From positions 86,977 through 150,976 of the forward strand of contig JAKAWR010000006.1 of NCBI GenBank assembly GCA_021816935.1: a stretch of 64,000 bases of DNA, in the 5' to 3' direction. The notes below the pieces were generated by a model. It ran no database searches. It saw only the letters and a list, made by a program, of their open reading frames with translations, and was not told where the DNA came from. Numbering within the stretch: position 1 is the stretch's first letter; the number at the start of each line of letters is the position of its first letter. This stretch comes from Actinomycetes bacterium. Lineage in GTDB: Bacteria; Actinomycetota; Acidimicrobiia; Acidimicrobiales; JAMCPL01. A program made the translations under genes and the position numbers. Shown here piece by piece: positions 40,001 to 63,187 of the stretch.

Positions 40001-40725
40001 TTTACGATGGCAACGGTCGAGTGTTGGGCTATGTAGATTATGCCACCCTTGTGGTAGTTGAAGGGCCCCTTGCCGGCGTCAGGGGCGTCGTTGTCGTTGG
40101 GAGCCGCCGGGTCGAACTGCTGGAAGTAGGGGTTCCCCGTGATACGGAGGCCCGGTCCATAAGTCGACGTTCCCCCGTTCAGATCGAGGGTTCCCCCGTT
40201 CACATCGAACGCCTGCCAGTCGTCGCCTATGGGGCAGAGATTGACTGATCCAACGGTCGGGATCGATACCGGTGCTGCCTGGCACGCGGCGGGAGCTGTC
40301 CATTCCGGAGCATGGATTGCGACGTGGTTCCCCATCCCGTAGGTGCCTGTGGGGGAAACGGATACCGTGAGGGCCTGGCCTGCCTCGATGACCACGGTCG
40401 AGGGAAGCCTGAAGCCGCCGGAACACGCCATGACGATCGTCCCACCGAGCGCGCTGTCCGGAGAGGTAGTGACGGTGTTCCACGAAGGGCCGAGCAGTGT
40501 CGTGAGGGCCTGGTCGAAGCCCGAGTTGTCCGAGCAATCCGTCACCGTTACGGTCGGGCTGGCAGGACTGCCGGATCGAGGACTGAACGTGGCGCTCTCG
40601 GGAGCGGATCCGGTCGGCGAAAGGGACCACGCCGGTCCACTGGTGGTGGTGAGAAGGACGATTCCGAGCACGGAAAGGCTTGCCGACGCGAGGCCGCTCC
40701 TCAGCTGCCACCTCACTGGTACCAT
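37009..40725 (-). CDS. Giant secreted protein A: Gly-rich Pmp-like (GGAI/FxxN) beta-helix region, Ig-like domain, an unassigned domain, and three C-terminal DTR...GWY repeats
   Basis: Signal-peptide-like start MVPVRWQLRSGLASASLSVLGIVLLTTTSGPAWS. Pmp-type repeats GGAIYNAGALTVTGSTFNADEA and GGAIYNTGTLTVTGSTFENDWA. Ig-like PLPGATVGAAYTATLSAGGGTAPYRWSV. Three ~125-aa C-terminal repeats; the protein ends in VGWYQ. The longest ORF extends to 40806 and overlaps gene B. Confidence 0.8.
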   Translation of the reverse strand: MVPVRWQLRSGLASASLSVLGIVLLTTTSGPAWSLSPTGSAPESATFSPRSGSPASPTVTVTDCSDNSGFDQALTTLLGPSWNTVTTSPDSALGGTIVMACSGGFRLPSTVVIEAGQALTVSVSPTGTYGMGNHVAIHAPEWTAPAACQAAPVSIPTVGSVNLCPIGDDWQAFDVNGGTLDLNGGTSTYGPGLRITGNPYFQQFDPAAPNDNDAPDAGKGPFNYHKGGIIYIAQHSTVAIVNAGLGAGEVQGENAGTGGCSDSDMIKGGKGGHGGSGEGGAIYNAGALTVTGSTFNADEAFGGGGGVGGDGYNGPCNGLDNEPGYDAGKGGSGGAGKGGAIYNTGTLTVTGSTFENDWAGGSGGGAGGGGGSDTTVPGDGGSGGKGGSGGKGSYGYGGAIYSGPSFNLANFGIGSPPVLVVSSSTFKDNWATGGGGGEGGAGDDPNNLVSGSGQGASMSLCGPPTNLVPCGTAGSGADGGGGGAGGDALGSSIFAGGLPPSMGSAILSGNTFSGATLEAGSGGTGGAGGQGGGTYTAAFVPGPPEADGNDGGSGQSGTTVAAGLWGGPYIQNVDVWDGYPQNLQVTTTSPLPGATVGAAYTATLSAGGGTAPYRWSVQPGASLPSWLSFSPEGTFSGTPTTAGTTSVAVEATDSAGASAVATLTLDATSAPSGGPQVTGTDSATSANSRESASAGGPGTAVPDTAATATGGTGTVYVTSYSGNPGGGSPFQAGGSYFDVNLSGGATFNDVTVTQCGVALGQTMEWFDGTATAAGFAGGAWIPVNPPAVFDPVSGCLNFTATSSSTPSISQISGAIFGTGSDLPVGMGPSPCAVSYTASAAPAPAAGSYSPVRPYRIADTRPGSGSLYDGETIHSCSTLDIQATGLGGVSLSATAAVLNVTVVSPRGSGYLTVYPAGTTRPATSSLNFAKGEVVANLVEVALPSTGQVSIYNGSAAPADVVVDVEGYVSSSGGSLFQALSPVRICDTRPNNPSDLSGAQAQCGGKTLNPGLPLKVNVAGVGSIPASAMAVVLNLTATGPSAAGYLTAYPAGASPPVASSLNFAKSETVPNRVVVELSGGAIDLVSNTATNAVVDVSGYFSSTGTSYTPIAPSRIADTRCGAGMLAPPFCNKENLPPANGLATTLGSKATLTISVAGINSIPANATAAVMNVTATDTTGSSYLTVWPAGQKQPTASDLNWVAGKTTPNLVITKLGSSGQVSIYNLAGSVDVIVDIVGWYQ

Positions 40726-40783
40726 CCCGCGACGCCCGCTATCACCCTGCGCCTGGCCATGCTCTGCGGCCACTGGCGCCACC

Positions 40784-51634: not shown

Positions 51635-54600
51635 CTACTTGGCGGGGAGGGCTGTGTACCAGCCGGTCACGTCGATGGCGAGAGCGGTGGTACCGCTCAG
51701 GTTGAAAACTTCGACGGCGCCCCCCTGGCCCCCCTGGCCGCTCCCCGCGGCGACAGGCAGCAGGACCATATTGGCTTTGATCGTCCCCGGGCTCCAGTTG
51801 AGGTTCGATGTGTCCGGCTTGGTTGTACCCAACTGGTAGATCGTAAGGTAGCTGTTCGTCGTCGTCAGGGTCACGGTCACGTTGGCGGTCACCGAGACCG
51901 CATCGGCCGGCAGGGAGCCTGCTCCGATTACCTGTGCTGCCAGTTCACCCGCCGTACCGGCACCTACAGGGGTCCCGGAATTGGCGCATTGACGCGAGGC
52001 GCCGCTTGCCGCGTCCGGTGCTCCGCCGATTTGAGCGGCGGAGCGCGTGTCGCATATCCGGAACGGCGAGCTGGGTGTGAACGCGTAGCCACTTGGCGAG
52101 AACCATGCGCTCACGTCGACGATGACCTGGGACGTGCCCGATGAGTTGTAGATTTCTATCTTGCCGAGGCCGGTGCCCTGGCCCAGGGCGACCATGACGC
52201 TGTCCGACGCGGTGCGATGCACGAAGTTGACGCTGGACGTCGTGGTCCGGGTCGTTCCCGCGGGCCACACCGTGAGATAGCCGTTGGCAGTCGGCGGCCC
52301 GGCTGCTGTGACGTTGAGCATCACGGCGCTCACGCCCGAGGAGGGGATTCCATTTACCCCCGCCACCTGGATCGTGATGGTCCCACCGGGTCCGGGAGCC
52401 GTTATAGCGGAGTTGGGCGCGGGTATGGCCTCGCCGGTGCAGTACGCGGGCAGGCTACGCGGCGGGTTCGTCGTCGTGCAACGGGTGTCGAGGATCCTGA
52501 CGGGAGACGTTAGTGGATCAAGATAGGTTCCACCGGGAGCCGCAGGCGCGTAGTAACCTTCAACGTCCACGATGACGTTGACTCCGGCGCTGGACGAGAG
52601 AACGGAGATCTTACCGAGCGACCCGACTGCGACAGTGACGAGGTTCGGGACCGGCTCCGCCGGAGTGTAGTTGAGGCTCGACGTCGTCGGAGGAGCAGTG
52701 CCTGCCGGGTACGCCGACAGGAAGCCGTTATGCGCCTGCGCCGGCGCGACGGCGGTCAGCGTGATGACGACCGCCTCAGCGTTGTTCGGGACGGCACCGG
52801 CCCCGGGCCCGGTGCCGGTGGTACTCGTGATCTGTATCTCTATGGATCCGCCGGCTGCAGGCGGGTTGAGAGCGGCGTTGGCCGTCGGGAGGCGCTCGCT
52901 CTGGCATTCGGAAGCGGGCAGAACTGGCGGGCTGGAGCTGCAGCGGGTGTCGGCCTCGCGGAAGGGGTTTACGGGCACGTAGGGGAGTGACGGTGTTACG
53001 TAGACGAAACCCACTGCAGCGCTCGTGCCCGATGGCGTCGTTACCGTGACCCCCACGACGCCGGGCGACGCATAGGAGGGCACGGTAACAGTTACCTCGC
53101 TTGCCGATACGACGGTAAGAGACGGTGCTGTTCCGGCGGGGCCGAACGTTGCTGCCGTAGCGGAGAGGAGGTACGTGCCCATGATGGTCGCGCTGGCTCC
53201 GCCGGTCAGCGGGGACGAATCCGGCGTGATGAAGGTGATCGACGGAGGCGGTGCCTGTTTCTCCAGGATCACCTGGTCGTTCGTGGTTGCACCGGTGGCG
53301 AAGCATACCTCCGTGCCCGGCGGGCACTCTATAGAGTAGATCGTGACCACGCCGGTGGGGAGCGGTTCGCCTGCCCACGTCCGGCCCCCGTCGGTCGTGC
53401 CCATGGCCACGGGGACCGATCCTGGGGACCCGGCCATGCCCACCATGCTGCAGTACTCGCCAGCGGAGCAGGAGACCCCAAGGACGGCGCTTGTGCCCGG
53501 CGGCGACTTGACGGCGGTCCACGTGGCTCCGCCGTCCGACGTGGTGACGATCTCGGCGGCGGACGTACTTCCCACTGCAATGCAATCGGTCGCGGTCGGG
53601 CACGAGACGCTGAAGAGCGGCGGCATGCCCTGCGGAGTCGAACCGAGCTTCCAGGTCGCTCCGCCGTCCGACGTGTACACCGCGTACCCCACGCTATGGC
53701 CAGAATCGAACCCCACCGCTGCGCAGTGAGTCGTGTCGGCGCACGACACGGCTATAAGTATGCCGATCGGTGCCTGCGTGCCGCCTCGAGCGACCACGTC
53801 CGGCGGTGTCGACGTCGACCAGGTGGCACCGGCGTCGGTCGACTTGTAGATGTAGGCCTGGTTCTCCCCCGAGGCGGAACCGACGGCGAAGCATTCCGAA
53901 GTTGAGGGACACGACACCCATTCCATCGACTGCTTGCCCGTGGGAACAGTGCCGGCGGTCCAGGTGAGGCCTGCGTTCACCGTCGTGGCCGCGTGCGAGG
54001 TGGAGTCGGTATTGTCGTCCCCTACGGCAGTGCACTGCGAAGGGGCGGGGCAGGAAACGCTCTCCAAGCTCATTGGAGAAGGTGGCGGGGTCTGCGAAGA
54101 CCACGTGGCACCACCGTCGCCTGTCGCCTCTATGAATGCGGTCGTTCTTGCGGCATCGTATCCGACAGCGGTGCAGCGGAACGTTCCGTAACAGCCTATG
54201 GCGGGAAGCTGTGCCATCCCTTCGGGTGCCGCCTTGGTCGACCAGGTCTTGCCGCCGTCGGTGGTCTGGAGGATGGTGGCCACCTGCCCCAGCCGCGCGG
54301 CCCCTACAGCAGTGCACCCTGTGGCGGTGGGGCAGGAGATGCCGTCGAGTGCGCCTGCACCAGAAGGGAAACCGGTAAGCGACGTCCAGGACGATCCTCC
54401 GTCGGTAGTCTCGATCGCGATTGGAGTGGTGGTGTCGTAATTGCCCGGGCTCACGGCAAGGCACGTCGTAGAGGAGGTGCAGCTCACCGATGTGAGTGCA
54501 TCGAGCCCCGGAGGCGTCGAGGGAGGCGTCGAGGTGGTCCACGACGTGCCGCCATTCGCTGTGTCGACGATCCATGGAGTGGCGGTCCCTCCTCCGGCCG

Positions 54601-55642
54601 GCAGGGCGGTACCTGTCGCTACGCAGGTAGTGGAGCTCGGGCAACTCATAGAGAGAGCATCGTCACTGCTCGTCCCGGGCATAGGGTAAGCGGCCCAGGT
54701 AGATCCTCCGTCGGTCGACACGAAGCCCGCAGGGCCTACGGCGTTGCTCCCGGCCTGCGCCATCCCTGCAGCCACGCAGCGGGTCGCGGAGTAACAGGAG
54801 ACGACCTGCATGGCAGCCCCGGCAATCGCCGCCGGATGCGTGCTCCACGTTGTTCCGCCGTCGGTCGTTGTCACCGATCCCGCCGAGACGGTCTTCACGC
54901 CCCCGGCGCCCACCTGCGACAGGAGCCCGACCGCGACGCAGGTGCTGGCGGTCGGGCATGAAACGGTGAAGATCTGCTGTGCAGCCGAAGGCAGGGTTGC
55001 CGCCGTCCAGGTTGAGCCTCCGTTACGGGTGACGATCAATGCCGCCCGAGGTATGTTTCCGTATTGCTCGGGGACGGCCACGCACGTCGTCGTACTGCCG
55101 CAGGAGATGTCTCCGATCAGTTGCGTGCCGTCCGGGAGGGTGCCGGCACTCCACGACGCTCCCGAGTCCGTAGTCGAGATCGTCGCCCCGTACATGGCGT
55201 AGTTGTAACCGGTAGCGACGCATGTGCTTGCCGACGGGCAGCTCACTGCCTCGAGGGGACCTATCTGGCTGGGGTATTGCGAGACCATCTGCCACGAACC
55301 GTTCGGAGCGGCCACCTTCGAAGAAAGGGTCGTGCGCCGCGCGGCCACTGTACCCGGCGAGGGAGGAGATGCACTTGAAGTGGCGGCAGAGCTTCCCGAG
55401 GTGAGACGAGTGGTTGCCAGGCTCGGGCTCGGGCCGCCCGCCGTGCGGGTGCCGTAAGCAGCCGTACCTCCACCGGGCACCGTCGCCCCGGGCATCGTCG
55501 CCCCGGGCACCGTCGCCCCGGGCACCGCCATTCCGAGAGCGAGGAGGCTGAGGCGAGCCCTGCCACGAGCAAGTTTCCACGAGTCCAACAGCCGTCTCAG
55601 GAGCGTTCCGGCGGCCGCTGTTTCGAGTGCTGGAGTGGGCAT
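51635..55642 (-). CDS. Giant secreted protein C: 14 Cys-pair BNR/Asp-box-like blades (two 7-blade propellers), an IPT/TIG domain, and three C-terminal DTR...GWY repeats
   Basis: Fourteen units of the type VSCPSASTCVATG...TTDSGASWS. IPT/TIG-like ITFITPDSSPLTGGASATIMGTYL...VTVTVPS...GVVGVTVTTPSGTS. Three C-terminal repeats ending in TGWYTALPAK. The start is uncertain: ATG at 55642, TTG at 55588 (which gives MDSWKLARGRARLSLLALGMAVPGA), or the longest ORF at 55885. Confidence 0.8.
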   Translation of the reverse strand: MPTPALETAAAGTLLRRLLDSWKLARGRARLSLLALGMAVPGATVPGATMPGATVPGGGTAAYGTRTAGGPSPSLATTRLTSGSSAATSSASPPSPGTVAARRTTLSSKVAAPNGSWQMVSQYPSQIGPLEAVSCPSASTCVATGYNYAMYGATISTTDSGASWSAGTLPDGTQLIGDISCGSTTTCVAVPEQYGNIPRAALIVTRNGGSTWTAATLPSAAQQIFTVSCPTASTCVAVGLLSQVGAGGVKTVSAGSVTTTDGGTTWSTHPAAIAGAAMQVVSCYSATRCVAAGMAQAGSNAVGPAGFVSTDGGSTWAAYPMPGTSSDDALSMSCPSSTTCVATGTALPAGGGTATPWIVDTANGGTSWTTSTPPSTPPGLDALTSVSCTSSTTCLAVSPGNYDTTTPIAIETTDGGSSWTSLTGFPSGAGALDGISCPTATGCTAVGAARLGQVATILQTTDGGKTWSTKAAPEGMAQLPAIGCYGTFRCTAVGYDAARTTAFIEATGDGGATWSSQTPPPSPMSLESVSCPAPSQCTAVGDDNTDSTSHAATTVNAGLTWTAGTVPTGKQSMEWVSCPSTSECFAVGSASGENQAYIYKSTDAGATWSTSTPPDVVARGGTQAPIGILIAVSCADTTHCAAVGFDSGHSVGYAVYTSDGGATWKLGSTPQGMPPLFSVSCPTATDCIAVGSTSAAEIVTTSDGGATWTAVKSPPGTSAVLGVSCSAGEYCSMVGMAGSPGSVPVAMGTTDGGRTWAGEPLPTGVVTIYSIECPPGTEVCFATGATTNDQVILEKQAPPPSITFITPDSSPLTGGASATIMGTYLLSATAATFGPAGTAPSLTVVSASEVTVTVPSYASPGVVGVTVTTPSGTSAAVGFVYVTPSLPYVPVNPFREADTRCSSSPPVLPASECQSERLPTANAALNPPAAGGSIEIQITSTTGTGPGAGAVPNNAEAVVITLTAVAPAQAHNGFLSAYPAGTAPPTTSSLNYTPAEPVPNLVTVAVGSLGKISVLSSSAGVNVIVDVEGYYAPAAPGGTYLDPLTSPVRILDTRCTTTNPPRSLPAYCTGEAIPAPNSAITAPGPGGTITIQVAGVNGIPSSGVSAVMLNVTAAGPPTANGYLTVWPAGTTRTTTSSVNFVHRTASDSVMVALGQGTGLGKIEIYNSSGTSQVIVDVSAWFSPSGYAFTPSSPFRICDTRSAAQIGGAPDAASGASRQCANSGTPVGAGTAGELAAQVIGAGSLPADAVSVTANVTVTLTTTNSYLTIYQLGTTKPDTSNLNWSPGTIKANMVLLPVAAGSGQGGQGGAVEVFNLSGTTALAIDVTGWYTALPAK
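55473..55529. repeat. 15-bp tandem repeat x3.8 (ccgggcaccgtcgcc), in frame near the N-terminus of protein C
   Basis: It encodes VPGATVPGATMPGATVPGG. Read directly; one unit has a single substitution. Confidence 0.9.
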
Positions 55643-55663
55643 CGCCCGCAGGCCGTGGCGGCA

Positions 55664-55731
55664 ACCTCGGAGAGTTCGTCGTCCAGCCTGCTCGCCGACC
55701 TCGGAGAGCTCGTCGTCCAGCCTGCCCGCCG
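55664..55731. repeat. 34-bp tandem duplication x2 (2 mismatches) upstream of the probable start of protein C
   Basis: acctcggagagttcgtcgtccagcctgctcgccg / acctcggagagctcgtcgtccagcctgcccgccg, followed by a partial acct. The unit length is not a multiple of 3. Confidence 0.9.
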
Positions 55732-56149
55732 ACCTAGCGAAGCGCGTAGTTCGCTGCCTCGTAGTGCGCACGACTCCAGTGTATAGTTTTTCAGGAGACG
55801 AGTCCGGCGGTCGGTCCCTGGCTGGCCGGTGGGCGGTCGTAGCCGGAGATGCCGGGTGAGACCGGTCGAGATGAGTCGGTTTCATGGGTTGGCATACCGG
55901 GATCTGAAGTCGGCGAGGAATGCCTTGGTATTACCGGGCCGTCGAGCGCCCGGTGATTGCGTTCGTGTTGGGAGTCTCAGGGATTAACGGTAAGATGAGG
56001 CTCATGGCGTACGGGAGCGAAGCCCTTTACGTACGGTTGATCAAGGCGGGCTCTGGCGCGGCATCGGGCGAGGTGGGTGGACTGCGGTGGCTGCGCGCCT
56101 CCACAGTCCTCGGTTGGTGCTTTACAGGTCGGGAGCAGGGGACATTTAC

Positions 56150-57862
56150 ATGAGCGCACTGGACACACTTGCGGCCATGAGTGAGGAGCGGAGCCGCTCC
56201 CACCCGCGGCGGTGGATTGTCTCCGTGGGGATCGCCCTTGGCGCCTTGGTGGTGGCGGGGGGCCTTGCGGTTGCAGCCTTGCTGCTCTTCGGCAGGCCGG
56301 CGGTTTCCATCGTCAATTCGGATAGAGCACTGGCGCAGGTGCGGCCCGGCGGCTTCGGTGCGCGAGTGGTTTTTGTGGATGCGCGGGTGGCTTCGGTTAA
56401 TGGCGCGGGCGGTTCGGGTAGCTCCATCACGATTGATCGACGGGGGGATCAGCTGTGGCCGGCCGAGGACGTCCGGCCGGGGGAGATGGTGACGGTGACG
56501 GCACGTGTGGCGAGCCCGTCATGGCTGAGGTGGCTTTATGGCAAACCCGTGACGGCATCGTTGACTGTTGAGGCGCCATCGGCGAAGCTGCTTACCAAGC
56601 GGGAGTTCTCGCTCGCCGATCACAAGCTTCCATTGGACTTCACTGCACCGGTTGCTACGGTCAGTTACAGTACGGGCGGTTCGGGCGACCCGATGGTCAC
56701 CCTCCAGTCGCCGGAGGCGAATGTGAACGTCGCGGTACCTTCGGGCCAGGAGAATGGAACGGTCAACGTGAGGTATTCCGCCCGATCCTGGGAGCCGCTG
56801 ATTTCGGTTCCGCAACGGGTTCAGTGGTTTGCCCCGGTGCCCGGTCCGGTGCCAACCGTGGCTGTGAGCCCGGTTCCCGGCAGCGGTTCGGCCCACCCGA
56901 TCACTCCGATCAGGTTGGCCTTCTCGGTTCCGGTAGTGCAGGCGCTCGGTGGGACGATGCCCTCGGTCTCTCCGCCGATCAAGGGCTCCTGGTTGCAGAC
57001 ATCGCTGACGAGCGTGGCCTTCCAGCCTGCGTCGGTATTCGATCCGGGGGCCCAAGAAAAGGTGGTACTGCCTCATACGTTCTGGCTGGCCGCCCCGGGA
57101 GAAGTGCCGAACAAGTCCTCCTCGTTCAGTTTCTCGGTTGCGAGCGGGTCGGTCCTTCGTGCTCAGCAGATCCTCGCCCAGCTCGGCTACCTGCCGCTGG
57201 TTTTCACGCCGGCGGCCGGGGTGAGGCAGCCGGACAGCCTGGCTTCCGAAGAGGCGAGCACCTTCTCGCCGCTCGCCGGGTCATTCTCGTGGCGCTGGTC
57301 GAACACGCCCTCGTCGCTCGTAGCGATGTGGGATCCGGGGTCGTCGTCGTCGATGGTCCAGGGCGCGTTGATGACCTTCGCGTTGGATGCGGGTTTGTAC
57401 GTTTCGGAGATGCGCTTCGAGAGCGCACAGCAGATCCTGACGCGGCAGGTGTGGATGGCCCTGTTGCAGGCCGCTCTCGCAGGGAAGAGTGATCCGCATC
57501 CGTACTCCTATGTATACGTCCAGGAGGCCTTGCCGCAAACGCTCACGCTCTGGGAGAACGGCAGCGTCGTGCTCACGACGCTCGCGAACACGGGGATATC
57601 CGTCGATCCGACGGCAACCGGTGTCTACCCGATCTACGTGCGCTATGCGGAGAACTGGATGAGCGGAACGAACCCGAACGGCAGCTACTACCACGATCTC
57701 GTACACTGGATCAACTACTTCAACGGTGGCGATGCCGTACATGGGTTCGTTCGCGCGTCTTACGGGTGGCCGCAGAGCCTCGGCTGCGTCGAATTGCCGC
57801 TCGGGGCCGCCCAAACCGCCTTCAACGACTTGGCGGTCGGTGATCTCGTAAACGTTGTCTGA
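56150..57862 (+). CDS. L,D-transpeptidase (YkuD domain) with an N-terminal TM anchor and long Ig-like/PG-binding-like spacer domains
   Basis: C-terminal catalytic motif DAVHGFVRASYGWPQSLGCVELP (His ... SxGC). TM anchor WIVSVGIALGALVVAGGLAVAALLLF. The start was set at the Met at 56150. Confidence 0.8.
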   Translation: MSALDTLAAMSEERSRSHPRRWIVSVGIALGALVVAGGLAVAALLLFGRPAVSIVNSDRALAQVRPGGFGARVVFVDARVASVNGAGGSGSSITIDRRGDQLWPAEDVRPGEMVTVTARVASPSWLRWLYGKPVTASLTVEAPSAKLLTKREFSLADHKLPLDFTAPVATVSYSTGGSGDPMVTLQSPEANVNVAVPSGQENGTVNVRYSARSWEPLISVPQRVQWFAPVPGPVPTVAVSPVPGSGSAHPITPIRLAFSVPVVQALGGTMPSVSPPIKGSWLQTSLTSVAFQPASVFDPGAQEKVVLPHTFWLAAPGEVPNKSSSFSFSVASGSVLRAQQILAQLGYLPLVFTPAAGVRQPDSLASEEASTFSPLAGSFSWRWSNTPSSLVAMWDPGSSSSMVQGALMTFALDAGLYVSEMRFESAQQILTRQVWMALLQAALAGKSDPHPYSYVYVQEALPQTLTLWENGSVVLTTLANTGISVDPTATGVYPIYVRYAENWMSGTNPNGSYYHDLVHWINYFNGGDAVHGFVRASYGWPQSLGCVELPLGAAQTAFNDLAVGDLVNVV

Positions 57863-58024
57863 TAATCCTGCAACCGTCACCCTCCCTCCCTTCACGGGAT
57901 AAACCCCTACGGAGCCGGTCGCGGGTGCGTACGTGGCATACGTACCCGGCCACCGGGAATTACGGGCGGGCCTTCGGAGATCCCTACGTTCAATTACCGG
58001 CGTCGTCTGGAACATGCTTATGGT

Positions 58025-58939
58025 ATGGAACCAACCGCTCCGGAGTACCGATCGGGAACAAGTACGCATTCATCGTTGTCGCCCGGGGCGGCGAACCCAT
58101 CGCGGCACCCCGGTGCGCCGCGCCCGCACGATAACGGCCTGTCCAGGCGACGGTTCCTCAAGAGAGTTGGTGCCGGTGCCGCGGGCGTATCTATCCTGGC
58201 GGCCGGCGGAGCGGACCTGCTGCCGAGCAGTGCCTCCGCAGCACCCGGGGCCGGCGCGGGCTCGCCGGCCAAGCCCAAGGCATCGCACCAGTGGTGCATG
58301 GTTATCGACCTTCGTTATTGCGATGGGTGCAAGCAGTGCACGGCGGCGTGCCAGAAGGCGCACTATCTGCACGAGGACCAGACGTGGATACGGGTTTTCA
58401 CGATGGAGGGCGAGAGCGGGAACACCTACCACATGCCGCGTCCCTGTATGATGTGCGAGGACCCTCCGTGCGTTCCCGTCTGCCCCGTCAGCGCGAATTT
58501 CAGGACCGACGAGGGGCTGACGCTCGTGAACCAGCAGCGCTGCATCGGAACCCGGATATGTATGAACGCATGTCCCTACCAGGCGCGCTATTTCAACTGG
58601 ACCAGTCCGGCTCCGGCGCCTCGCCAGCCGTTTGCCCAGACGCCGGAGTGGCCTGTTCCCCAGGTAAAGGGGACAGTGGGTAAGTGTGTCTTCTGTGCCG
58701 CGATGCTGCCGGCCGGCAAGATCCCTGAATGCGTGGCGGGATGCCCGATGGGTGTTCTGTACCTCGGGGACCTGGAGAGCGACGTCGCCGTGAACGGCTT
58801 CGGGAATGTGATCAAGCTGTCGCAGTTCCTTGCTGACAACGACGCGGTGAAGTTCAAGGAAGACTACGGGACCCACCCGAGGGTCTGGTACATCCTCGGG
58901 CACGGGCAGGATCTCGGGAGCGACTCGGAGGCCTCATGA
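58025..58939 (+). CDS. Tat-exported 4-cluster ferredoxin-like Fe-S subunit (NrfC/PsrB/DsrO/HybA family)
   Basis: Twin-arginine signal LSRRRFLKRVGAGAAGVSILAAG. Cys motifs: CDGCKQCTAAC, CMMCEDPPCVPVCP, CIGTRICMNACP (the second Cys of this group is replaced by Thr), and CVFCAAML...CVAGCP. Confidence 0.85.
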   Translation: MEPTAPEYRSGTSTHSSLSPGAANPSRHPGAPRPHDNGLSRRRFLKRVGAGAAGVSILAAGGADLLPSSASAAPGAGAGSPAKPKASHQWCMVIDLRYCDGCKQCTAACQKAHYLHEDQTWIRVFTMEGESGNTYHMPRPCMMCEDPPCVPVCPVSANFRTDEGLTLVNQQRCIGTRICMNACPYQARYFNWTSPAPAPRQPFAQTPEWPVPQVKGTVGKCVFCAAMLPAGKIPECVAGCPMGVLYLGDLESDVAVNGFGNVIKLSQFLADNDAVKFKEDYGTHPRVWYILGHGQDLGSDSEAS

Positions 58940-60678
58940 CTTCGACCACGACAACCGGGGCGGGTACAGCGGCCACGCAGGGCGAGCAGCGCCAGGCAGG
59001 CGATCCAATCGTACCGCGACCCGATATACGGCAGGCAGCGCTCAGATCCATAGGGAAGTCCGGGAGATCCTGGTGGGTTATCGTCACCACGCTCGGCGTG
59101 ATTGTCGTAGCAGGTGTGGTGGCATGGATCTTCCAGTTGAGAGACGGCCTCGGTGCCGCGGGCTACAACGACCGGGCGTTCTGGGCGGTATACGAGGCAG
59201 ACTTGGTGGCCTTCATCGGGGTCAGCTACGGCGGCGCCGTAGTGTCGGCAATCCTCCGGCTGACGAAGGCCTCCTGGCGGGCACCGCTCACGCGAATTGC
59301 CGAAGCCACCGCCCTCGTGACGTTGCCGATAGGGATGCTCTTTATAATCCCTCATCTCGGCAGTCCCGAGAAAATCTGGGAGCTGGTCTGGCCGCCCTAC
59401 TGGAACCTCTCGTCGCCGATCCTGTGGGACTTCTTCGCAGTGAGCACCTACCTGCTGGCGACGGCGGTATTCTTCTACCTTCCGCTCATTCCTGATGTGA
59501 AGGTCGCTATCAGTGGAGATGGTGTCCCGCCAGCTTGCGCCGGGCTGCGGTACCGCCTTATCCGCTGGCTATACGCAACTGTCGGGCGGAGTTGGGACGG
59601 CACGACGGGCCAGCGCCGGATACTCCATGGTGCACTCGGGCTGGTAGCAATCATGATCATTCCGATGGCGGTGTCGGTCCACTCCGTGCTGAGCTTCGCA
59701 TTCTCCTCTTCGAGCAGGGCAGGATACCTTGAGACCATCCTTCCCGTATATTTCGTGATAGCGGCACTCTACACAGGGGTCGCAATCGTCATCGTCGCGG
59801 TCGTGGCCTTCCGGCGCGCGTACCGGTTGGAGCGCTGGATCACGAAGCGCCACGTCGTGAGACTTGGCTTCATGATGGCTGCGCTTGGCGCGATATATCT
59901 CTACCTCACGTTCACCGAGTATCTCATCGACGGCTATTCGGGAACCGCCGGCAATGCGGCGTGGGTGCACCAGATCGTCGCAGGACGGTACTGGATTCCC
60001 TTCTGGTTCTACTTCGTCGCTGCAGGGGTGGTCCCGCTCCTTCTCATAGCGATTCCACGCACCCGCAACGTCAAGGGCATGACGGTTGCTTCCGTGCTCA
60101 TCCTCTTTGCAATGTGGGTCAAGCGCCTCGTGATCGTGGTCCCGGCAGCCACTGAACCGTTGGTCAGGTCGGCCATTACGCACGGCGGCGCGGTCAGCAG
60201 TGGAGTCGCTCCCGCTTCGCAGGGATCGCCCGCTCTCGGGATCGGCGGCGGAGTCGCCTGGGGAACCTACCACTTCACCTGGATCCCGATAGCCATCACG
60301 GTTGCGGCTACGGCGGCCATCCCCCTTCTGCTCATGATCCTGTTCAAGATCTTCCCCGTCATGTCCGTCACCGAGTTGGAAGAGGTGGCGCAGCTGGAAG
60401 GTTTGGAGGTCGACGTGGACGGTGTGGTCCGGGTGCTGAGCGGGGCGACGAGTGAGCGCCCGCGTGCCTGGCGGACCGGGTCAGGCGTGCCCGCAGCCCG
60501 GTCGGGTCCTCCGTTGCATGGAAGTGGGTCGGGTGCAGGCCTGAAGCGAGGCCGGTCAGATAAGCAGTTGCAACCCGAAAGCTCGCGAGCCCCCGCCAGG
60601 GAGGGCGCTGGAACGCTCTCTTCCCCGGATGCCGGCTCCGGTGCCGGCGGAACGACGATCGGAGGTGACGGTGAATGA
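58936..60678 (+). CDS. NrfD/PsrC/DsrP-family polytopic quinone-interacting membrane subunit, with an ~110-aa hydrophilic C-terminal tail
   Basis: ATGA overlap with the upstream gene. Family-like N-terminal region FWAVYEADLVAFIGVSYGGAVVSAILRL...RIAEATALVTL...PHLGSPEKIWEL. About 10 hydrophobic helices. Confidence 0.85.
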   Translation: MTSTTTTGAGTAATQGEQRQAGDPIVPRPDIRQAALRSIGKSGRSWWVIVTTLGVIVVAGVVAWIFQLRDGLGAAGYNDRAFWAVYEADLVAFIGVSYGGAVVSAILRLTKASWRAPLTRIAEATALVTLPIGMLFIIPHLGSPEKIWELVWPPYWNLSSPILWDFFAVSTYLLATAVFFYLPLIPDVKVAISGDGVPPACAGLRYRLIRWLYATVGRSWDGTTGQRRILHGALGLVAIMIIPMAVSVHSVLSFAFSSSSRAGYLETILPVYFVIAALYTGVAIVIVAVVAFRRAYRLERWITKRHVVRLGFMMAALGAIYLYLTFTEYLIDGYSGTAGNAAWVHQIVAGRYWIPFWFYFVAAGVVPLLLIAIPRTRNVKGMTVASVLILFAMWVKRLVIVVPAATEPLVRSAITHGGAVSSGVAPASQGSPALGIGGGVAWGTYHFTWIPIAITVAATAAIPLLLMILFKIFPVMSVTELEEVAQLEGLEVDVDGVVRVLSGATSERPRAWRTGSGVPAARSGPPLHGSGSGAGLKRGRSDKQLQPESSRAPAREGAGTLSSPDAGSGAGGTTIGGDGE

Positions 60679-61709
60679 GGCAGCTAGGGAATAATCCGGT
60701 AAGTGGAGCGGGCCCCACGCCGGGCGCAGGCGGCGGGAGTGGATCGCTGAGGTTGGCCGTGGTAATCGGGAGCAAGGCCCTGGGCATCCTTTTCGTGGTG
60801 GCGTGCGCTTTGGCACCCTTCGGCTATGGCGGTACCGCCGCGGCCGCTTCAACGGCTGCTGGTAGCACCCCGGGCAGCAGCGGCGGATCCGTGACGGCCG
60901 GCGGCGAATACGTCGGGCCTTCTTCGGCGAGCGGTTCAGGAGCGGCTTCGGGTTCGGTCAATTCAAGCGGCGAGTACGTGGGAGCAGGCGGCTCCTCTCC
61001 TGCAGGCGGTGTCAACTCTCCGGGGGGCAGCTCGGGGGCGTCTCTGCCTGGCTCGGGTTCCGCCTCGGGTTCCGCCTCGGGTTCTGGTTCGGTAAGCGGA
61101 TCCGGAGAGTACACGGGGCCGGGCACTGCCGCGCCTCCCGGTTCTGGTGCTGGGAGGTCCGGTTCGCCGTCAACGCAGGGAAGCGCGGCGAGTCCTGCCG
61201 GCCCTGTCGATACCATGACCCTGCAAGCCCAGGGAGCGTCCTCCGATCCGTCCAGCGTCGAGCTGGTTGCCACACTTAGGGGCGCCGGCGGGGCGGGAGC
61301 TGCAGCACCTGTACCGGTAGCCGGTGTTGCGGTGAAGTTCTACGTCGCTGCGAGCCAGTTCGCAGGGGCGTTCGGCGGCCAGGCGCCGGAGATGCTTGTC
61401 GGTACGGCAACGACGAGCGCGGCAGGGGTGGCTCAGGTTGCCTACCGGACGACGTGGAAAGGCACGCAGAGCTTCAGCGCTCAGGCCGCGGGGACCGGCA
61501 AGAATGCGAGTCCGCTCGCCACAGCGGCCGCCTCCTACGATGCGCTGTCCGCAAGCCGCCCGTTCGCAGGCCAGCTCGAGGCGTCGCGGCCAGACGGGAC
61601 AGTCGGGCGGTGGGCAGCAGGGTTGCTTCTCGCCGTAGTGGCACTCCTATGGATCGTGATGCTTGGCAGCGTCGGCAGGGTCCATCTACTGCTGGCAAGG
61701 CGGGTCTGA
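60675..61709 (+). CDS. Ser/Gly-rich protein with N-terminal and C-terminal hydrophobic anchors and an Ig-like beta domain
   Basis: ATGA overlap with the NrfD-like gene. Contains the GEY(V/T)G(P/A) triplet motif x3, a GSGSASGSASGSGS tract, a beta-rich segment (VELVATLRG...VAVKFYVAAS...VAQVAYRTTWKGTQSFSAQAAG), and a C-terminal TM (AAGLLLAVVALLWIVMLGSV). It has no CxxCH haem motif. Confidence 0.6.
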   Translation: MRQLGNNPVSGAGPTPGAGGGSGSLRLAVVIGSKALGILFVVACALAPFGYGGTAAAASTAAGSTPGSSGGSVTAGGEYVGPSSASGSGAASGSVNSSGEYVGAGGSSPAGGVNSPGGSSGASLPGSGSASGSASGSGSVSGSGEYTGPGTAAPPGSGAGRSGSPSTQGSAASPAGPVDTMTLQAQGASSDPSSVELVATLRGAGGAGAAAPVPVAGVAVKFYVAASQFAGAFGGQAPEMLVGTATTSAAGVAQVAYRTTWKGTQSFSAQAAGTGKNASPLATAAASYDALSASRPFAGQLEASRPDGTVGRWAAGLLLAVVALLWIVMLGSVGRVHLLLARRV

Positions 61710-61814
61710 TGTGGTGGGAGCTCGGTGGAATATCGGCTTGGGAAAAGTCGACTCGCGGATGGCGAGATCCGTTGGTTCGGCGTCTCGACGGCAATGATAT
61801 GGCAGGAGGCAATA

Positions 61815-62102
61815 ATGGAAGGTGAAGCAAGAACGGCACTGTTGGAAGCAGAAGAGGCAGAGGCAGGGACGGTTGCGCCCGGCACTGCAGTCGCTCAAAG
61901 CGAAGAGTTCCTCCCCCTGGAATTCGGAGCCGAGGACCCCGACGCCGCAGTACGTCGCGCTCCGAAAGCGAAGTTGATCGCTGTCACGTTGGCCATCATT
62001 GTCGGCGTGGTCGTGAGCCTCGTGGTCGGGGTCGTAGTGATCGCCTACGTTATCAAGGGGCTGCAGGCGCTCACCGCGGTCGTGGGTCCGCTTGCGCTGT
62101 AG
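61815..62102 (+). CDS. Small acidic protein with a C-terminal TM helix
   Basis: The ATG at 61815 is preceded by GGAGG at 5-6 nt. MEGEARTALLEAEEAEAG... followed by LIAVTLAIIVGVVVSLVVGVVVIAYVI. The longest ORF starts at 61725. Confidence 0.4.
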   Translation: MEGEARTALLEAEEAEAGTVAPGTAVAQSEEFLPLEFGAEDPDAAVRRAPKAKLIAVTLAIIVGVVVSLVVGVVVIAYVIKGLQALTAVVGPLAL

Positions 62103-62278
62103 CTCTCGGCGCCCCGGGTGGCGCTGAGGGTGCGGCCGGCCGGTTTTGCTGGGCGCGTCGCGGTCGGTCCTGATAGGGGGTTGTTGTTGACGGCAGGCGC
62201 GGCCCCGCCTCCGGCAGGCTGCGTGAGGTGCCCCTCCTCACTTTGTGCGTCGAGAGCGATCTAACTATACTGAGGAGT

Positions 62279-63187
62279 ATGCCTGATAGCGAAGCATCTG
62301 AGCGACCGGGCCCGGGCGTGCCCGGAGGGATCGAGAGGATCGGTGTCGTCGGATGCGGGCTCATGGGATCCGGGGTGGCCGAAGTGAGTGCGAGGGCTGG
62401 TCTCGCTGTCGTGGTTGTCGAGGCGGAGGACGAACTTGCGAAGGCCGGGCGCTTCCGCATTGAAGCGTCGCTTTCCAGGGGGCTGAAGAGCGGCAAGATC
62501 AGCCAGGAGGATCTCGACGGCGCGCTGGCTAAGATCGATGTCACATCGGACTACGATACGCTTGGTGCTTGCGACCTGATCGTCGAGGCGGTGACGGAAT
62601 CCGAGCCGGCTAAGGAGGAGGTCTTCCGGATCCTCGACAGGGTGGTGGAGAACCCGGAGGCGATACTTGCCTCCAATACCAGCTCCATCCCAATCATGAA
62701 GCTCGGGATGGTGACGGCCCGGCCGGAGAGGGTGGTGGGTCTGCACTTCTTCAATCCGGTTCCGGTACTGAAGCTGGTCGAGCTCGTTCCATCGTTGCTG
62801 ACGGGGGAGGATACGGTGTCGCGGGTAGAGGCATTCGCCACAGAGAGGCTCGGGAAACGGGTGATTCACTGCCAGGATCGTGCCGGGTTCGTTGTAAATG
62901 CACTTCTCATCCCGTACATTCTGTCGGCAGTGAGGATGATGGAGTCCGGGTTCGCGTCGGCAGGCGATATAGATACCGGAATGGTTGAGGGTTGCGCTCA
63001 TCCGATGGGCCCATTGGCGTTAGCGGACCTGATCGGGCTTGACACGACCGCTGCCGTGGCCCAGTCGCTTTACGAGGAGTTCAAGGAGCCGCTGTACGCG
63101 CCGCCGCCGCTCCTCCTTCGCATGGTGGAGGCGGGTCTCATGGGGCGGAAGGCCGGGCGGGGTTTCTTCGAGTACGCCCGGTTGTGA
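62279..63187 (+). CDS. 3-hydroxybutyryl/3-hydroxyacyl-CoA dehydrogenase
   Basis: Rossmann IGVVGCGLMGSGVAEV, followed by EAVTESEPAKEEVF...ASNTSSIPI...HFFNPVPVLKLVE...VNALLIPY. Confidence 0.9.
   Translation: MPDSEASERPGPGVPGGIERIGVVGCGLMGSGVAEVSARAGLAVVVVEAEDELAKAGRFRIEASLSRGLKSGKISQEDLDGALAKIDVTSDYDTLGACDLIVEAVTESEPAKEEVFRILDRVVENPEAILASNTSSIPIMKLGMVTARPERVVGLHFFNPVPVLKLVELVPSLLTGEDTVSRVEAFATERLGKRVIHCQDRAGFVVNALLIPYILSAVRMMESGFASAGDIDTGMVEGCAHPMGPLALADLIGLDTTAAVAQSLYEEFKEPLYAPPPLLLRMVEAGLMGRKAGRGFFEYARL

What the first reader, a model, noticed from the sequence alone, without database searches (positions are those of the whole stretch)
58025..62102. Orphan, translationally coupled NrfC/NrfD-type quinone module with a Ser/Gly-rich tethered protein and no catalytic partner
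**Organisation.** Three genes are joined by ATGA overlaps (58936 and 60675):
1. a Tat-signal Fe-S protein with four ferredoxin-like Cys groups;
2. an NrfD/PsrC/DsrP-like ~10-helix membrane protein with an unusual ~110-aa hydrophilic tail;
3. a 344-aa Ser/Gly-rich protein anchored at both ends, with an Ig-like beta domain and a GEY(V/T)G motif x3.

A small acidic single-TM protein with a strong SD follows.

**What is missing.** In characterised systems (Psr, Nrf, Ttr, Dsr, Qrc, ACIII) the NrfC/NrfD pair wires the quinone pool to a molybdopterin or multihaem partner. Here no such subunit and no CxxCH motif is present in the operon or its neighbours. Upstream is an L,D-transpeptidase gene and downstream are beta-oxidation genes.

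**Fe-S detail.** The third Cys group reads CIGTRIC rather than CxxCxxC. It may therefore hold a 3Fe-4S cluster or be degenerate.

**Open question.** The extracytoplasmic electron donor or acceptor of this module is unknown. The tethered Ser/Gly-rich protein is a candidate novel partner. This is speculative.
Basis: partly seen in the sequence, partly recalled or inferred. Interest (0 to 1): 0.6.

Follow-up and report, generated by a model that had tools for sequence, protein, structure and literature searches.

The report
Haem-free ACIII-like quinol module, cupredoxin-linked
The three overlapping genes are the membrane core of an undescribed respiratory complex of Acidimicrobiia, related to alternative complex III, which in about 70 related genomes is encoded next to copper (CuA-like cupredoxin) proteins instead of haem or molybdenum subunits; this genome's copy is unusual in having lost the adjacent copper-protein gene.

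Summary
Three translationally coupled genes encode a Tat-exported four-cluster Fe-S protein, a 10-helix NrfD-like membrane protein and a Ser/Gly-rich Ig-like protein. No molybdopterin or c-type haem gene lies nearby.

- **Closest solved relatives.** The membrane subunit is closest to ActC of alternative complex III (ACIII). The odd Cys group CIGTRIC is the same motif as in ActB of ACIII, whose [3Fe-4S] cluster faces the quinol site.
- **Conserved cluster.** In 84 related loci the order NrfC–NrfD–Ig/TM protein is kept (80/80). It comes with membrane-tethered CuA-like cupredoxins: CupA in 71/72 informative loci, CupB in 31/40. A NarL-type two-component system and often a 345-aa membrane protein are also present.
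- **No other recurrent neighbour.** No haem or Mo subunit recurs.
- **Gene 3.** It is a cofactor-less accessory subunit, fused to NrfD in some relatives. Its Ser/Gly linker is lineage-specific. Gene 4 is not conserved.
- **This window.** It has no CupA. A CupB gene and the two-component system lie 2.4–5.7 kb beyond the window's end.

Best reading: a haem-free ACIII-like menaquinol:cupredoxin oxidoreductase core. That function is inferred, not shown. I found no paper describing this pairing.

The parts
58025..58939 (+). NrfC/ActB(B2)-like Fe-S subunit, 304 aa, exported by Tat; four Cys groups, predicted 1x[3Fe-4S] + 3x[4Fe-4S]
   Evidence: ORF. Pfam Fer4_11 at 59 bits. Best NCBIfam match is DsrO at 168.6 bits, below the cut-off of 200. 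PDB matches: ArrB 6cz7_B, PsrB 2vpw_B, and the B2 part of ActB in 6f0k_B, 8k9e_B and 6lod_B.
58142..58162 (+). Twin-arginine (Tat) motif S-R-R-R-F-L-K (residues 40-46)
   Evidence: Read from the sequence. The RRxFL motif is also present in the homologues.
58541..58576 (+). Third Cys group CIGTRICMNACP (residues 173-184): the second Cys is replaced by Thr (codon ACC), the [3Fe-4S] signature
   Evidence: The motif is CxGTRxC in 51 of 70 family members and CIGCRxC in 19. The same substitution (CIGTRYC or CVGTKYC) occurs in ActB of three ACIII structures. The [3Fe-4S] cluster of ACIII lies next to the ActC quinol site (PMC7439408). The codon was checked.
58936..60678 (+). NrfD/ActC-like quinone-interacting membrane subunit, 580 aa, 10 TM segments; start overlaps the gene 1 stop (ATGA)
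   Evidence: Pfam NrfD at 95.9 bits. The only PDB matches at E<0.01 are ActC chains: 6f0k_C 9e-39, 6btm_C, 8k9e_C and 6lod_C. Ten hydrophobic segments. ActC residues His141, Asp171, His246 and Arg394 are kept as H140, D165, H249 and R397.
60391..60675 (+). Non-conserved hydrophilic, low-complexity C-terminal tail of the NrfD-like protein (residues ~486-580)
   Evidence: The tail does not align in the family alignment A1. At this position some relatives continue into a fused copy of the gene 3 protein.
60675..61709 (+). Accessory subunit 'IgTM', 344 aa: signal/anchor, Ser/Gly linker, Ig-like domain, RPDGxxGRW motif, C-terminal TM helix; start overlaps the gene 2 stop (ATGA)
   Evidence: A homologue follows NrfD directly in 80 of 80 loci. 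It is fused to NrfD in P0064, P0099, P0109 and P0119. The family is small, with 66 representatives.
60822..61199 (+). Lineage-specific Ser/Gly-rich linker with GEY(V/T)G x3 (residues ~50-175)
   Evidence: The linker is absent from homologues, which are 190-230 aa long. It contains one short 12-bp tandem array. It swamped a word-based homology search.
61206..61538 (+). Ig-like seven-strand beta sandwich (residues ~178-288)
   Evidence: AlphaFold2 model m64dd7d924df3, pLDDT 79. Foldseek matches intimin Big_1, CARDB and macroglobulin domains at E about 1e-3. No conserved Cys, His or Met.
61575..61706 (+). Conserved juxtamembrane motif (ASRPDGTVGRW) plus C-terminal TM helix, the most conserved part of the subunit
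   Evidence: Invariant R, G, L and W columns in alignment A6. This part is retained even in the short homologues that lack the Ig domain. The model has a helix at residues 137-174. Hydropathy segment at residues 315-333.
61815..62102 (+). Small acidic single-TM protein (95 aa) with AGGAGG Shine-Dalgarno; probably not part of the system
   Evidence: SD and ATG read from the sequence. Homologues occur only in the two other assemblies of the same locus. No family match.

Best explanation
Genes 1-3 encode the membrane core of a haem-free, molybdopterin-free relative of alternative complex III. It is found mainly in Acidimicrobiia.

**Proposed mechanism.**
1. Menaquinol binds the ActC-like subunit near the outer face, where a His140/Asp165 pair is conserved.
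2. Electrons pass to the adjacent [3Fe-4S] cluster of the Tat-exported Fe-S subunit, then along its three [4Fe-4S] clusters.
3. They then reach membrane-tethered CuA-like cupredoxins (CupA, CupB) on the outer face, and from there an unidentified high-potential acceptor. The reverse direction is also possible.
4. The Ig/TM protein (gene 3) is a cofactor-less structural subunit that packs against NrfD.

**This genome.** The cluster is rearranged. The CupA gene that normally precedes NrfC is absent from all 64 kb. One CupB gene remains, beside the NarL-type two-component system that accompanies the cluster in relatives. It lies 2.7-3.8 kb beyond the window's end on the other strand.

**Shown.** The homologies, the motif identity with ActB, the conserved gene neighbourhood, the gene fusion, and the export signals.

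**Inferred.** That the cupredoxins bind copper, that they dock on the Fe-S subunit, the direction of electron flow, any proton coupling, and the terminal acceptor.
For: **Relation to ACIII.**
- The NrfD-like protein matches only ActC chains in the PDB, at 9e-39 to 4e-27.
- It keeps four of six functional ActC residues described for Roseiflexus ACIII (PMC7439408).
- The Fe-S protein carries the CxGTRxC motif also present in ActB.
- It has a Tat motif.

**Conserved neighbourhood (84 relatives' loci).**
- IgTM follows NrfD in 80 of 80 loci.
- CupA is present in 71 of 72 informative loci, immediately upstream of NrfC in at least 65.
- CupB is present in 31 of 40 loci, and a HisKA_3 kinase in 34 of 40.
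- An unbiased clustering of all other neighbouring ORFs found nothing in more than 11 loci.
- There are no CxxCH-bearing families.
- Look-ups starting from CupA returned the same cluster in 3 of 3 cases.

**The cupredoxins.**
- The CupB profile matches the CuA domain of NosZ at 5e-12.
- The CupA profile matches Thermus CuA at 8e-4.
- CupA and CupB are homologous, with HHalign probability 99.5%.
- The CupA model is a cupredoxin. Foldseek matches NosZ CuA, ba3 subunit II, rusticyanin and auracyanin.
- Both carry TM or lipoprotein anchors.

**Gene 3 and this genome.**
- Gene 3 is fused to NrfD in several relatives.
- CupB, the response regulator and the kinase lie next to the module in this genome.

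**Precedent.** ACIII of Roseiflexus reduces the blue-copper protein auracyanin (PMC7439408).
Against: - No experiment exists on any member. The function rests on gene neighbourhood and homology.
- The window's own locus lacks CupA and the 345-aa membrane protein (hmmsearch at E<=10 finds none). The proposed partner is therefore incomplete here, and the CupB gene is 5 kb away on the other strand.
- The cupredoxin metal sites are not canonical. CupA has no second His after CxxxC, and CupB has one in only about half of its members. Copper binding and site type are unproven. The ligand loop is low-confidence in the model.
- Two ActC residues linked to quinol binding or proton transfer are replaced: His99 to Tyr98 and Asp252 to Ala255.
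- By overall score the Fe-S subunit is nearer ArrB and PsrB than ActB.
- No terminal acceptor has been identified.
Confidence: 0.6

Rival explanations
1. One reading: a truly orphan NrfC/NrfD module whose novel redox partner is the tethered Ser/Gly-rich protein (gene 3).
For: Gene 3 is translationally coupled to NrfD. It is always present after NrfD. Its domain faces the same side as the Fe-S subunit.
Against: The family has no conserved Cys, His or Met and no cofactor motif. Its Ig domain is missing in some members (L003, L087). The conserved part is a juxtamembrane motif plus the TM helix. The fold is a generic Ig-like sandwich. The Ser/Gly stretch is unique to this lineage. Relatives carry cupredoxin genes in the same operon.
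Confidence: 0.05
2. In this genome the module is a decaying remnant. After loss of CupA and the 345-aa membrane protein, the NrfC-NrfD-IgTM genes no longer form a working complex.
For: This is the only locus of 73 with informative flanks that has no CupA. The neighbourhood is rearranged: an unrelated YkuD gene lies upstream, and beta-oxidation genes sit between the module and CupB/TCS. Low-complexity insertions occur in NrfD and gene 3.
Against: All three ORFs are intact and keep their ATGA coupling. All 15 cluster-ligand Cys residues, the Tat motif and every family-invariant NrfD residue are present. CupB with its full H/C/C/M/H/M set and the two-component system remain close by. CupA could be encoded elsewhere in the genome, which was not searchable.
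Confidence: 0.12
3. The cluster serves copper handling rather than respiration. NrfCD would feed quinol electrons to Cys/Met-rich cupredoxin-like proteins that reduce or sequester Cu(II)/Cu(I), or that keep a CxxxC pair reduced for metallation.
For: CupA has a Met-rich CxxxC...M...M...M loop without the second His of CuA. Many loci come from metal-rich mine environments; examples are RAAP-2 from an acid-mine biofilm (PMC4714123) and Ferrimicrobium. The cluster is under two-component control.
Against: No copper exporter, chaperone or CopC/CopD-type gene recurs in the neighbourhood. The closest relatives of CupA and CupB are electron-transfer CuA domains. A four-cluster Fe-S wire plus an ActC-like subunit is typical of respiratory complexes.
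Confidence: 0.12
4. A canonical catalytic subunit (Mo-bisPGD enzyme or multihaem cytochrome) encoded elsewhere in the genome pairs with this module.
For: Only 64 kb plus 7 kb of the genome could be read. The best NCBIfam matches are DsrO and DsrP.
Against: None of 84 related loci has such a gene within 7 kb. The DsrO and DsrP scores are below the cut-offs (168.6 against 200; 68 against 350). The conserved neighbours are cupredoxins instead.
Confidence: 0.05

Closest known systems
Alternative complex III (ActABCDEF; structures 6F0K, 6BTM, 6LOD, 8K9E)
   Same: The membrane subunit is most similar to ActC. It has 10 TM helices and keeps His141, Asp171, His246 and Arg394. The Fe-S subunit aligns with the B2 part of ActB and shares its CxGT(R/K)xC [3Fe-4S] motif. 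The Fe-S subunit is periplasmic. In Chloroflexi, ACIII hands electrons to a blue-copper protein, auracyanin.
   Different: There is no ActA pentahaem, no ActE monohaem, no ActF, no B1 (molybdopterin-like) domain and no ActD homologue. The conserved neighbours are two families of membrane-tethered CuA-like cupredoxins, an Ig/TM subunit and often a 345-aa membrane protein. His99 is replaced by Tyr and Asp252 by Ala.
DsrMKJOP (DsrO/DsrP) and QrcABCD (QrcC/QrcD) modules of sulfate reducers
   Same: These are the best NCBIfam matches (DsrO 1.4e-49, DsrP 7.8e-19, QrcC 6e-30). NrfD-like subunits have 8-10 TM helices (PMC8076601). QrcC also has a [3Fe-4S] cluster (PMC8076601).
   Different: The scores are below the curated cut-offs. 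No DsrM/K/J or QrcA/B genes are present, and no haem subunits. The host is an actinobacterium, with no sulfate-reduction context.
Polysulfide/arsenate/tetrathionate reductase-type PsrABC, ArrABC, TtrABC
   Same: The Fe-S subunit scores highest against ArrB (6cz7_B) and PsrB (2vpw_B). The general layout is the same: an Fe-S subunit on top of an NrfD-like anchor.
   Different: No Mo-bisPGD catalytic subunit occurs in the window or in 84 related loci. PsrC is not detected by the NrfD-like protein at E<0.01. These anchors have 8 rather than 10 helices.
NosGH menaquinol dehydrogenase of clade II nitrous-oxide reductase clusters (from my own knowledge)
   Same: An NrfC/NrfD-like pair is genetically linked to a protein carrying a CuA cupredoxin domain. 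CupB's best PDB match is the CuA domain of NosZ.
   Different: No NosZ beta-propeller (CuZ) domain is present; CupA and CupB are 180-260 aa single-domain proteins. No nosDFYL or NosC cytochromes are present.

Membership tests
NrfD/PsrC family of quinone-interacting membrane subunits (Pfam PF03916) | Profile match above the curated cut-off | tested here: met
   95.9 bits against a cut-off of 25.8, covering residues 78-404.
NrfD/PsrC family of quinone-interacting membrane subunits (Pfam PF03916) | 8-10 TM helices and no redox-cofactor motifs | tested here: met
   Ten hydrophobic segments. The alignment to ActC covers TM1-TM10. No Cys or His cofactor motif is seen.
Four-cluster ferredoxin subunits (NrfC/PsrB/DmsB type, PF13247) | Four Cys groups and a Tat signal | tested here: met
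   Four groups were found, the third being CxxTxxCxxxCP. Tat motif SRRRFLK. Fer4_11 at 59 bits.
Alternative complex III | ActC-like subunit with the quinol-site His/Asp pair and the Arg/His proton-path residues | tested here: inconclusive
   H140, D165, H249 and R397 are conserved. His99 is replaced by Tyr98 and Asp252 by Ala255 (residues from PMC7439408).
Alternative complex III | ActB with [3Fe-4S] motif CxGT(R/K)xC in the B2 domain | tested here: met
   CIGTRIC in the window, against CIGTRYC in 6f0k_B and CVGTKYC in 8k9e_B and 6lod_B.
Alternative complex III | ActB B1 (molybdopterin-oxidoreductase-like) domain | tested here: not met
   The protein is 304 aa. It aligns only to ActB residues ~681-990 of 933-1039.
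Alternative complex III | Haem c subunits ActA (pentahaem) and ActE (monohaem) | tested here: not met
   No CxxCH gene is in the operon or the window. No CxxCH-bearing conserved family occurs in 84 loci.
Alternative complex III | Second NrfD-like subunit ActF | tested here: not met
   Each locus has one NrfD HMM hit.
DsrMKJOP complex | DsrO and DsrP equivalog scores above cut-off, with DsrM/K/J genes adjacent | tested here: not met
   DsrO scores 168.6 against 200 and DsrP 68.3 against 350. No such neighbours are present.
Mo-bisPGD respiratory reductases with NrfCD-type anchors (Psr, Ttr, Arr, Sre, Soe, Fqo) | Adjacent Mo-bisPGD catalytic subunit | tested here: not met
   None in the window among the proteins scanned. 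None recurs in 84 loci. The MoCoBD proteins near L003 and L041 are xanthine-dehydrogenase type and are not conserved neighbours.
Nrf / Mcc / Nhc / Qrc (multihaem partner) | Adjacent multihaem cytochrome c | tested here: not met
CuA-type cupredoxin domains (COX2, NosZ); applies to CupA/CupB of relatives and to CupB beyond the window's end | Ligand set H...C-x3-C-x3-H-x2-M | tested here: not met
   CupA has H, C-x3-C and 2-3 Met but no second His (2 of 98). CupB has C-x3-C-x4-M-x-H in about 52% of members. The fold and profile matches to CuA domains are positive. Metal content is not testable here.

The most novel reading that the evidence does not exclude
The complex is the missing quinone-pool link of iron respiration in acidophilic Acidimicrobiia such as Ferrimicrobium acidiphilum. 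Surface-exposed, Met-rich CuA-like cupredoxins would exchange electrons with soluble Fe(II)/Fe(III), or with the aa3 oxidase. The ACIII-like NrfCD core would couple this to menaquinone, either downhill for Fe(III) reduction or pmf-driven uphill for reducing power. The whole path would work without any haem c. It would also define a new copper-site variant of the CuA fold.
Probability: 0.15. Interest if true: 0.85.

Novelty: new variant of a known kind. Interest (0 to 1): 0.62.

Why it matters
NrfC/NrfD pairs are a recurring building block of respiratory complexes. A 2021 survey lists 15 complex types, and all of them use molybdopterin, haem or Ni-Fe partners (PMC8076601).

A conserved version wired to CuA-like cupredoxins would add a new partner class. 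It would be a minimal, haem-free counterpart of alternative complex III.

The cluster occurs in a cultured organism, Ferrimicrobium acidiphilum. The route of electrons between extracellular iron and its membrane is explicitly described as unknown, and it lacks multihaem cytochromes (PMC8350767). The hypothesis can therefore be tested directly.

The CupA family (about 225 sequences in 5.8 billion) also offers a natural CuA-fold variant that lacks the second His ligand.

Tried and rejected
- **Full-length gene 3 search.** The homology search returned nothing because the Ser/Gly stretch filled the candidate list. I repeated it with the C-terminal 175 aa.
- **Promoter and terminator scan of 57600-62400.** It found no promoter-like site, and terminator-like sites at chance level.
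- **ACA codon reassignment.** Some RAAP-2-family Acidimicrobiales read ACA as Asp instead of Thr (bioRxiv 10.64898/2026.05.03.722492). That could have changed the CIGTRIC motif. It does not: the Thr is ACC, and the ACA codons in genes 1-3 align with conserved Thr or Ser in homologues, so the code is standard.
- **Gene 3 as an ActD homologue.** A profile search of the PDB gave only weak Ig-like hits.
- **Gene 4 and the upstream YkuD gene as part of the system.** Neither is found in any relative.
- **MoCoBD (xanthine-dehydrogenase-type) proteins near the cluster in L003 and L041.** They are not recurrent and belong to what I know as a cytoplasmic enzyme type.
- **Histidine kinase identity.** Only generic HisKA_3 similarity was found (MctS, UhpB, NarX), far below cut-offs, so the signal remains unknown.
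- **Literature.** Searches pairing NrfD or ACIII with cupredoxin, Acidimicrobiia or iron oxidation found no description of this cluster.

Full report
**1.

ORFs at 58025-58939, 58936-60678, 60675-61709 and 61725/61815-62102 all lie on the + strand. The first three are joined by ATGA start/stop overlaps.

- *Gene 1* has a twin-arginine motif (SRRRFLK) and four Cys groups. The third reads CIGTRICMNACP. It matches Pfam Fer4_11. Its best NCBIfam matches are DsrO, TtrB, ArrB, QrcC and NrfC, all below their curated cut-offs.
- *Gene 2* matches Pfam NrfD at 95.9 bits against a cut-off of 25.8. It has ten hydrophobic segments and a non-conserved tail of about 95 residues.
- *Gene 3* has no family match. 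An AlphaFold2 model of its C-terminal 175 residues (pLDDT 79) shows a seven-strand beta sandwich followed by a long TM helix. Foldseek finds only generic Ig-like folds: intimin Big_1, CARDB and macroglobulin domains.
- *Gene 4* most likely starts at 61815, behind AGGAGG.

No c-type haem gene or Mo-bisPGD gene was found in the 64-kb window. The contig is from an uncultured Acidimicrobiales-like actinobacterium (MAG GCA_027414435.1).

**2. What the two core subunits resemble.**

Against all PDB sequences, the NrfD-like protein matches only the ActC subunit of alternative complex III (ACIII). The matches are Rhodothermus 6f0k_C at 9e-39, then Flavobacterium, Chloroflexus and Roseiflexus. PsrC is not found at E<0.01.

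Six ActC residues are singled out in the Roseiflexus structure paper (PMC7439408). Four are kept:
- the quinol-binding His141 and Asp171, as H140 and D165;
- the proton-path His246 and Arg394, as H249 and R397.

Two are replaced throughout the family: His99 by Tyr98 and Asp252 by Ala255.

By score the Fe-S protein is nearest ArrB and PsrB, then the B2 part of ActB. Its unusual third Cys group is the motif of ActB, however: CIGTRYC in Rhodothermus and CVGTKYC in Chloroflexus and Roseiflexus. In ACIII that subunit holds one [3Fe-4S] and three [4Fe-4S] clusters. The [3Fe-4S] cluster faces the quinol pocket, and its potential is reported as +140 mV in R. marinus (PMC7439408).

From my own knowledge, replacing the second Cys of group III is also what makes the quinol-proximal cluster a [3Fe-4S] in NarH and in DmsB mutants.

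The Thr variant is present in 51 of 70 family members. A full CIGCRxC occurs in 19, nearly all in one subclade.

**3. The module is not an orphan in its relatives.**

A protein search found hundreds of homologues of the NrfD-like protein at 47-68% identity. Those that carry a source name are mostly Acidimicrobiales or Actinomycetota MAGs, with one Dormibacteria MAG. A scan of species-representative genomes gave 218 relatives. Eighty loci were fetched, including the isolate Ferrimicrobium acidiphilum YE2023.

I built profiles from the first four neighbourhoods and searched all loci with them. This gave a sharply conserved cluster:

| Feature | Loci with feature / informative loci |
|---|---|
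| Gene 3 homologue directly after NrfD | 80 / 80 |
| At least one 'CupA' gene | 71 / 72 (immediately upstream of NrfC in at least 65) |
| 'CupB' gene (loci with 5 kb on both sides) | 31 / 40 |
| HisKA_3 kinase with a GerE-type regulator | 34 / 40 |
| 345-aa polytopic membrane protein without any family match | 53 / 86 |

An unbiased clustering of every other ORF within 7 kb found nothing present in more than 11 loci. CxxCH is absent from the conserved families apart from two chance hits. Starting from three CupA proteins instead, each lay next to NrfC, NrfD and the small downstream protein.

**4. What CupA and CupB are.**

Both are 180-260-aa proteins. Each has a TM anchor or a lipoprotein signal and a C-terminal beta domain.

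- CupB matches Pfam Cupredoxin_1 and, weakly, COX2. Its profile hits the CuA domain of nitrous-oxide reductase at 5e-12.
- CupA has no Pfam match. Its profile reaches the Thermus CuA domain at 8e-4. It is homologous to CupB at HHalign probability 99.5%. Its AlphaFold2 model (pLDDT 78) is a cupredoxin; its best Foldseek matches are NosZ CuA domains and ba3 oxidase subunit II, with rusticyanin and auracyanin further down the list.
- UniRef labels the Ferrimicrobium protein as containing a CuA-binding domain.

The metal-site motifs are CuA-like but not canonical:
- CupA has H...W-x-C-x-A-P-C-G-x-G-x3-M-G-G-A-M-x5-M, with no second His.
- CupB has C-x2-P-C-G-x-W-x-M-x-H-x-G-Y-M, with the His in about half of its members.

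CupA is a small family, with 225 sequences below E=1e-3 in a 5.8-billion-protein collection.

**5. What gene 3 is.**

Its C-terminal domain family is also small, with 66 representatives in 1.84 billion proteins. Most members are 190-230 aa, so the 125-residue Ser/Gly/GEY(V/T)G stretch is an insertion specific to this lineage.

The conserved part is a juxtamembrane (E/Q)xxRPDGxxGR(W) motif plus the TM helix. Two homologues (L003, L087) lack the Ig domain altogether. No Cys, His or Met is conserved.

In P0064, P0099, P0109 and P0119 the whole protein is fused to the C-terminus of NrfD through an extra TM segment. This points to a structural subunit bound to NrfD. In role it is comparable to ActD, although no sequence similarity to ActD was found. 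It does not look like a redox partner.

Gene 4 and the upstream YkuD gene occur only in this locus.

**6. What is special about this window.**

Profile searches of all six frames of the 64 kb find no CupA, CupB or 345-aa membrane protein, even at E<=10. A longer copy of the same contig (L001; window coordinate = L001 + 48935) shows the missing context. After two beta-oxidation genes come a HisKA_3 kinase, a GerE regulator and a 356-aa CupB, all on the minus strand. They sit at window-equivalent positions 64533-67788. This CupB keeps H, C-x3-C, M, H and M.

In a neighbour-joining tree the window's NrfD sits next to loci with the order CupA-NrfC-NrfD-IgTM-CupB. The present arrangement is therefore derived. 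CupA was lost or moved, and CupB plus the two-component system were inverted. The same arrangement appears in three assemblies, so it is not a mis-assembly. All cluster ligands and all family-invariant NrfD residues are intact.

**7. Most likely mechanism.**

I propose a menaquinol:cupredoxin oxidoreductase. Quinol is oxidised at the outer-face pocket of the ActC-like subunit. Electrons run through the [3Fe-4S] and three [4Fe-4S] clusters of the exported Fe-S subunit. They then reach CuA-like cupredoxins tethered to the same face of the membrane. ACIII provides the precedent: it is a quinol oxidoreductase whose acceptor in Chloroflexi is a blue-copper protein. Here the haem wire is missing, and the copper proteins would dock on the Fe-S subunit directly.

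- *Shown:* the homologies, the shared motif, the export signals, the fusion and the gene linkage.
- *Inferred:* copper binding, docking, direction of flow, proton coupling and the final acceptor.

Each is weighed in its own section of this report.

**8. Novelty.**

[quoted passage not shown] None has a copper-protein partner, and the only actinobacterial group it mentions is FqoC. Seven literature searches found no paper linking NrfD or ACIII-type modules with cupredoxin genes in Acidimicrobiia.

I rate the family as a new variant of a known kind, and the window's copy as a reduced member of it.

Several loci come from acid-mine material: RAAP-2 (PMC4714123) and Ferrimicrobium. In F. acidiphilum the path of electrons between extracellular iron and the membrane is unresolved, and multihaem cytochromes are absent (PMC8350767). 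A role in iron respiration is therefore an attractive but unsupported extension.

Noticed in passing
L041 8888-9925 (Ferrimicrobium acidiphilum); also 52 other loci, e.g. L009 8838-9971: A conserved ~345-aa polytopic membrane protein, apparently with an internal repeat (…EGLGGILTG… occurs twice). It has no Pfam or NCBIfam match. It belongs to the cluster in 53 of 86 loci and sits between NrfC and NrfD in about 20 of them. It is absent from the window.
   Followed up: partly
P0064, P0099, P0109, P0119; L005 8001-10079: Natural fusions of the NrfD-like subunit with the gene 3-type Ig/TM protein through an extra TM helix. One of them (P0119) carries Pfam Big_1 and Big_3_5 annotations.
   Followed up: yes
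L001 17783-18853 (minus strand; window-equivalent 66718-67788, outside the window): This genome's CupB has an unusual ~190-residue N-terminal extension before its TM anchor. The extension contains repeated Trp/Arg-rich 'W..AGF' segments. CupB homologues elsewhere are 180-236 aa.
   Followed up: no
window 51635-55885 (-): A very large secreted protein (1298-1416 aa). It is built of about 14 repeats with a C-x-A/V-V-G...T-D-G-G-x-T-W pattern, gives faint BNR/Sortilin hits, and has a TIG domain followed by a C-terminal region of repeated beta domains. It lies directly upstream of the YkuD gene on the opposite strand.
   Followed up: no
window 37009-40806 (-) and 40784-43462 (-): Two adjacent very long ORFs of 1265 and 892 aa. 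The first has no Pfam match at 1e-5. The second has only one fn3 domain.
   Followed up: no
window 33320-36154 (+): A large LuxR-family regulator of the AAA_16-TPR-GerE (STAND/LAL) type. It is the only GerE-domain hit inside the window and is unrelated to the cluster's NarL-type regulators.
   Followed up: no
window-wide codon usage; genes at 58025-61709: A 2026 preprint reports ACA (Thr to Asp) reassignment in a clade of RAAP-2-family Acidimicrobiales. ACA makes up 10% of Thr codons here, and in genes 1-3 it aligns with conserved Thr or Ser. This organism appears to use the standard code.
   Followed up: yes
L003 13031-15349; L041 4554-6794: Xanthine-dehydrogenase/CoxL-type molybdenum hydroxylase genes lie a few kb from the cluster in two loci. 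They are not recurrent across loci, so this is probably coincidence.
   Followed up: partly
window 59190-60260 region of NrfD (residues ~419-440): The window's NrfD has an ~18-residue Gly/Ser/Ala-rich insertion (VSSGVAPASQGSPALGIGGGVA) in the loop before the last TM helix. All aligned relatives lack it. This parallels the low-complexity insertions in its tail and in gene 3.
   Followed up: no
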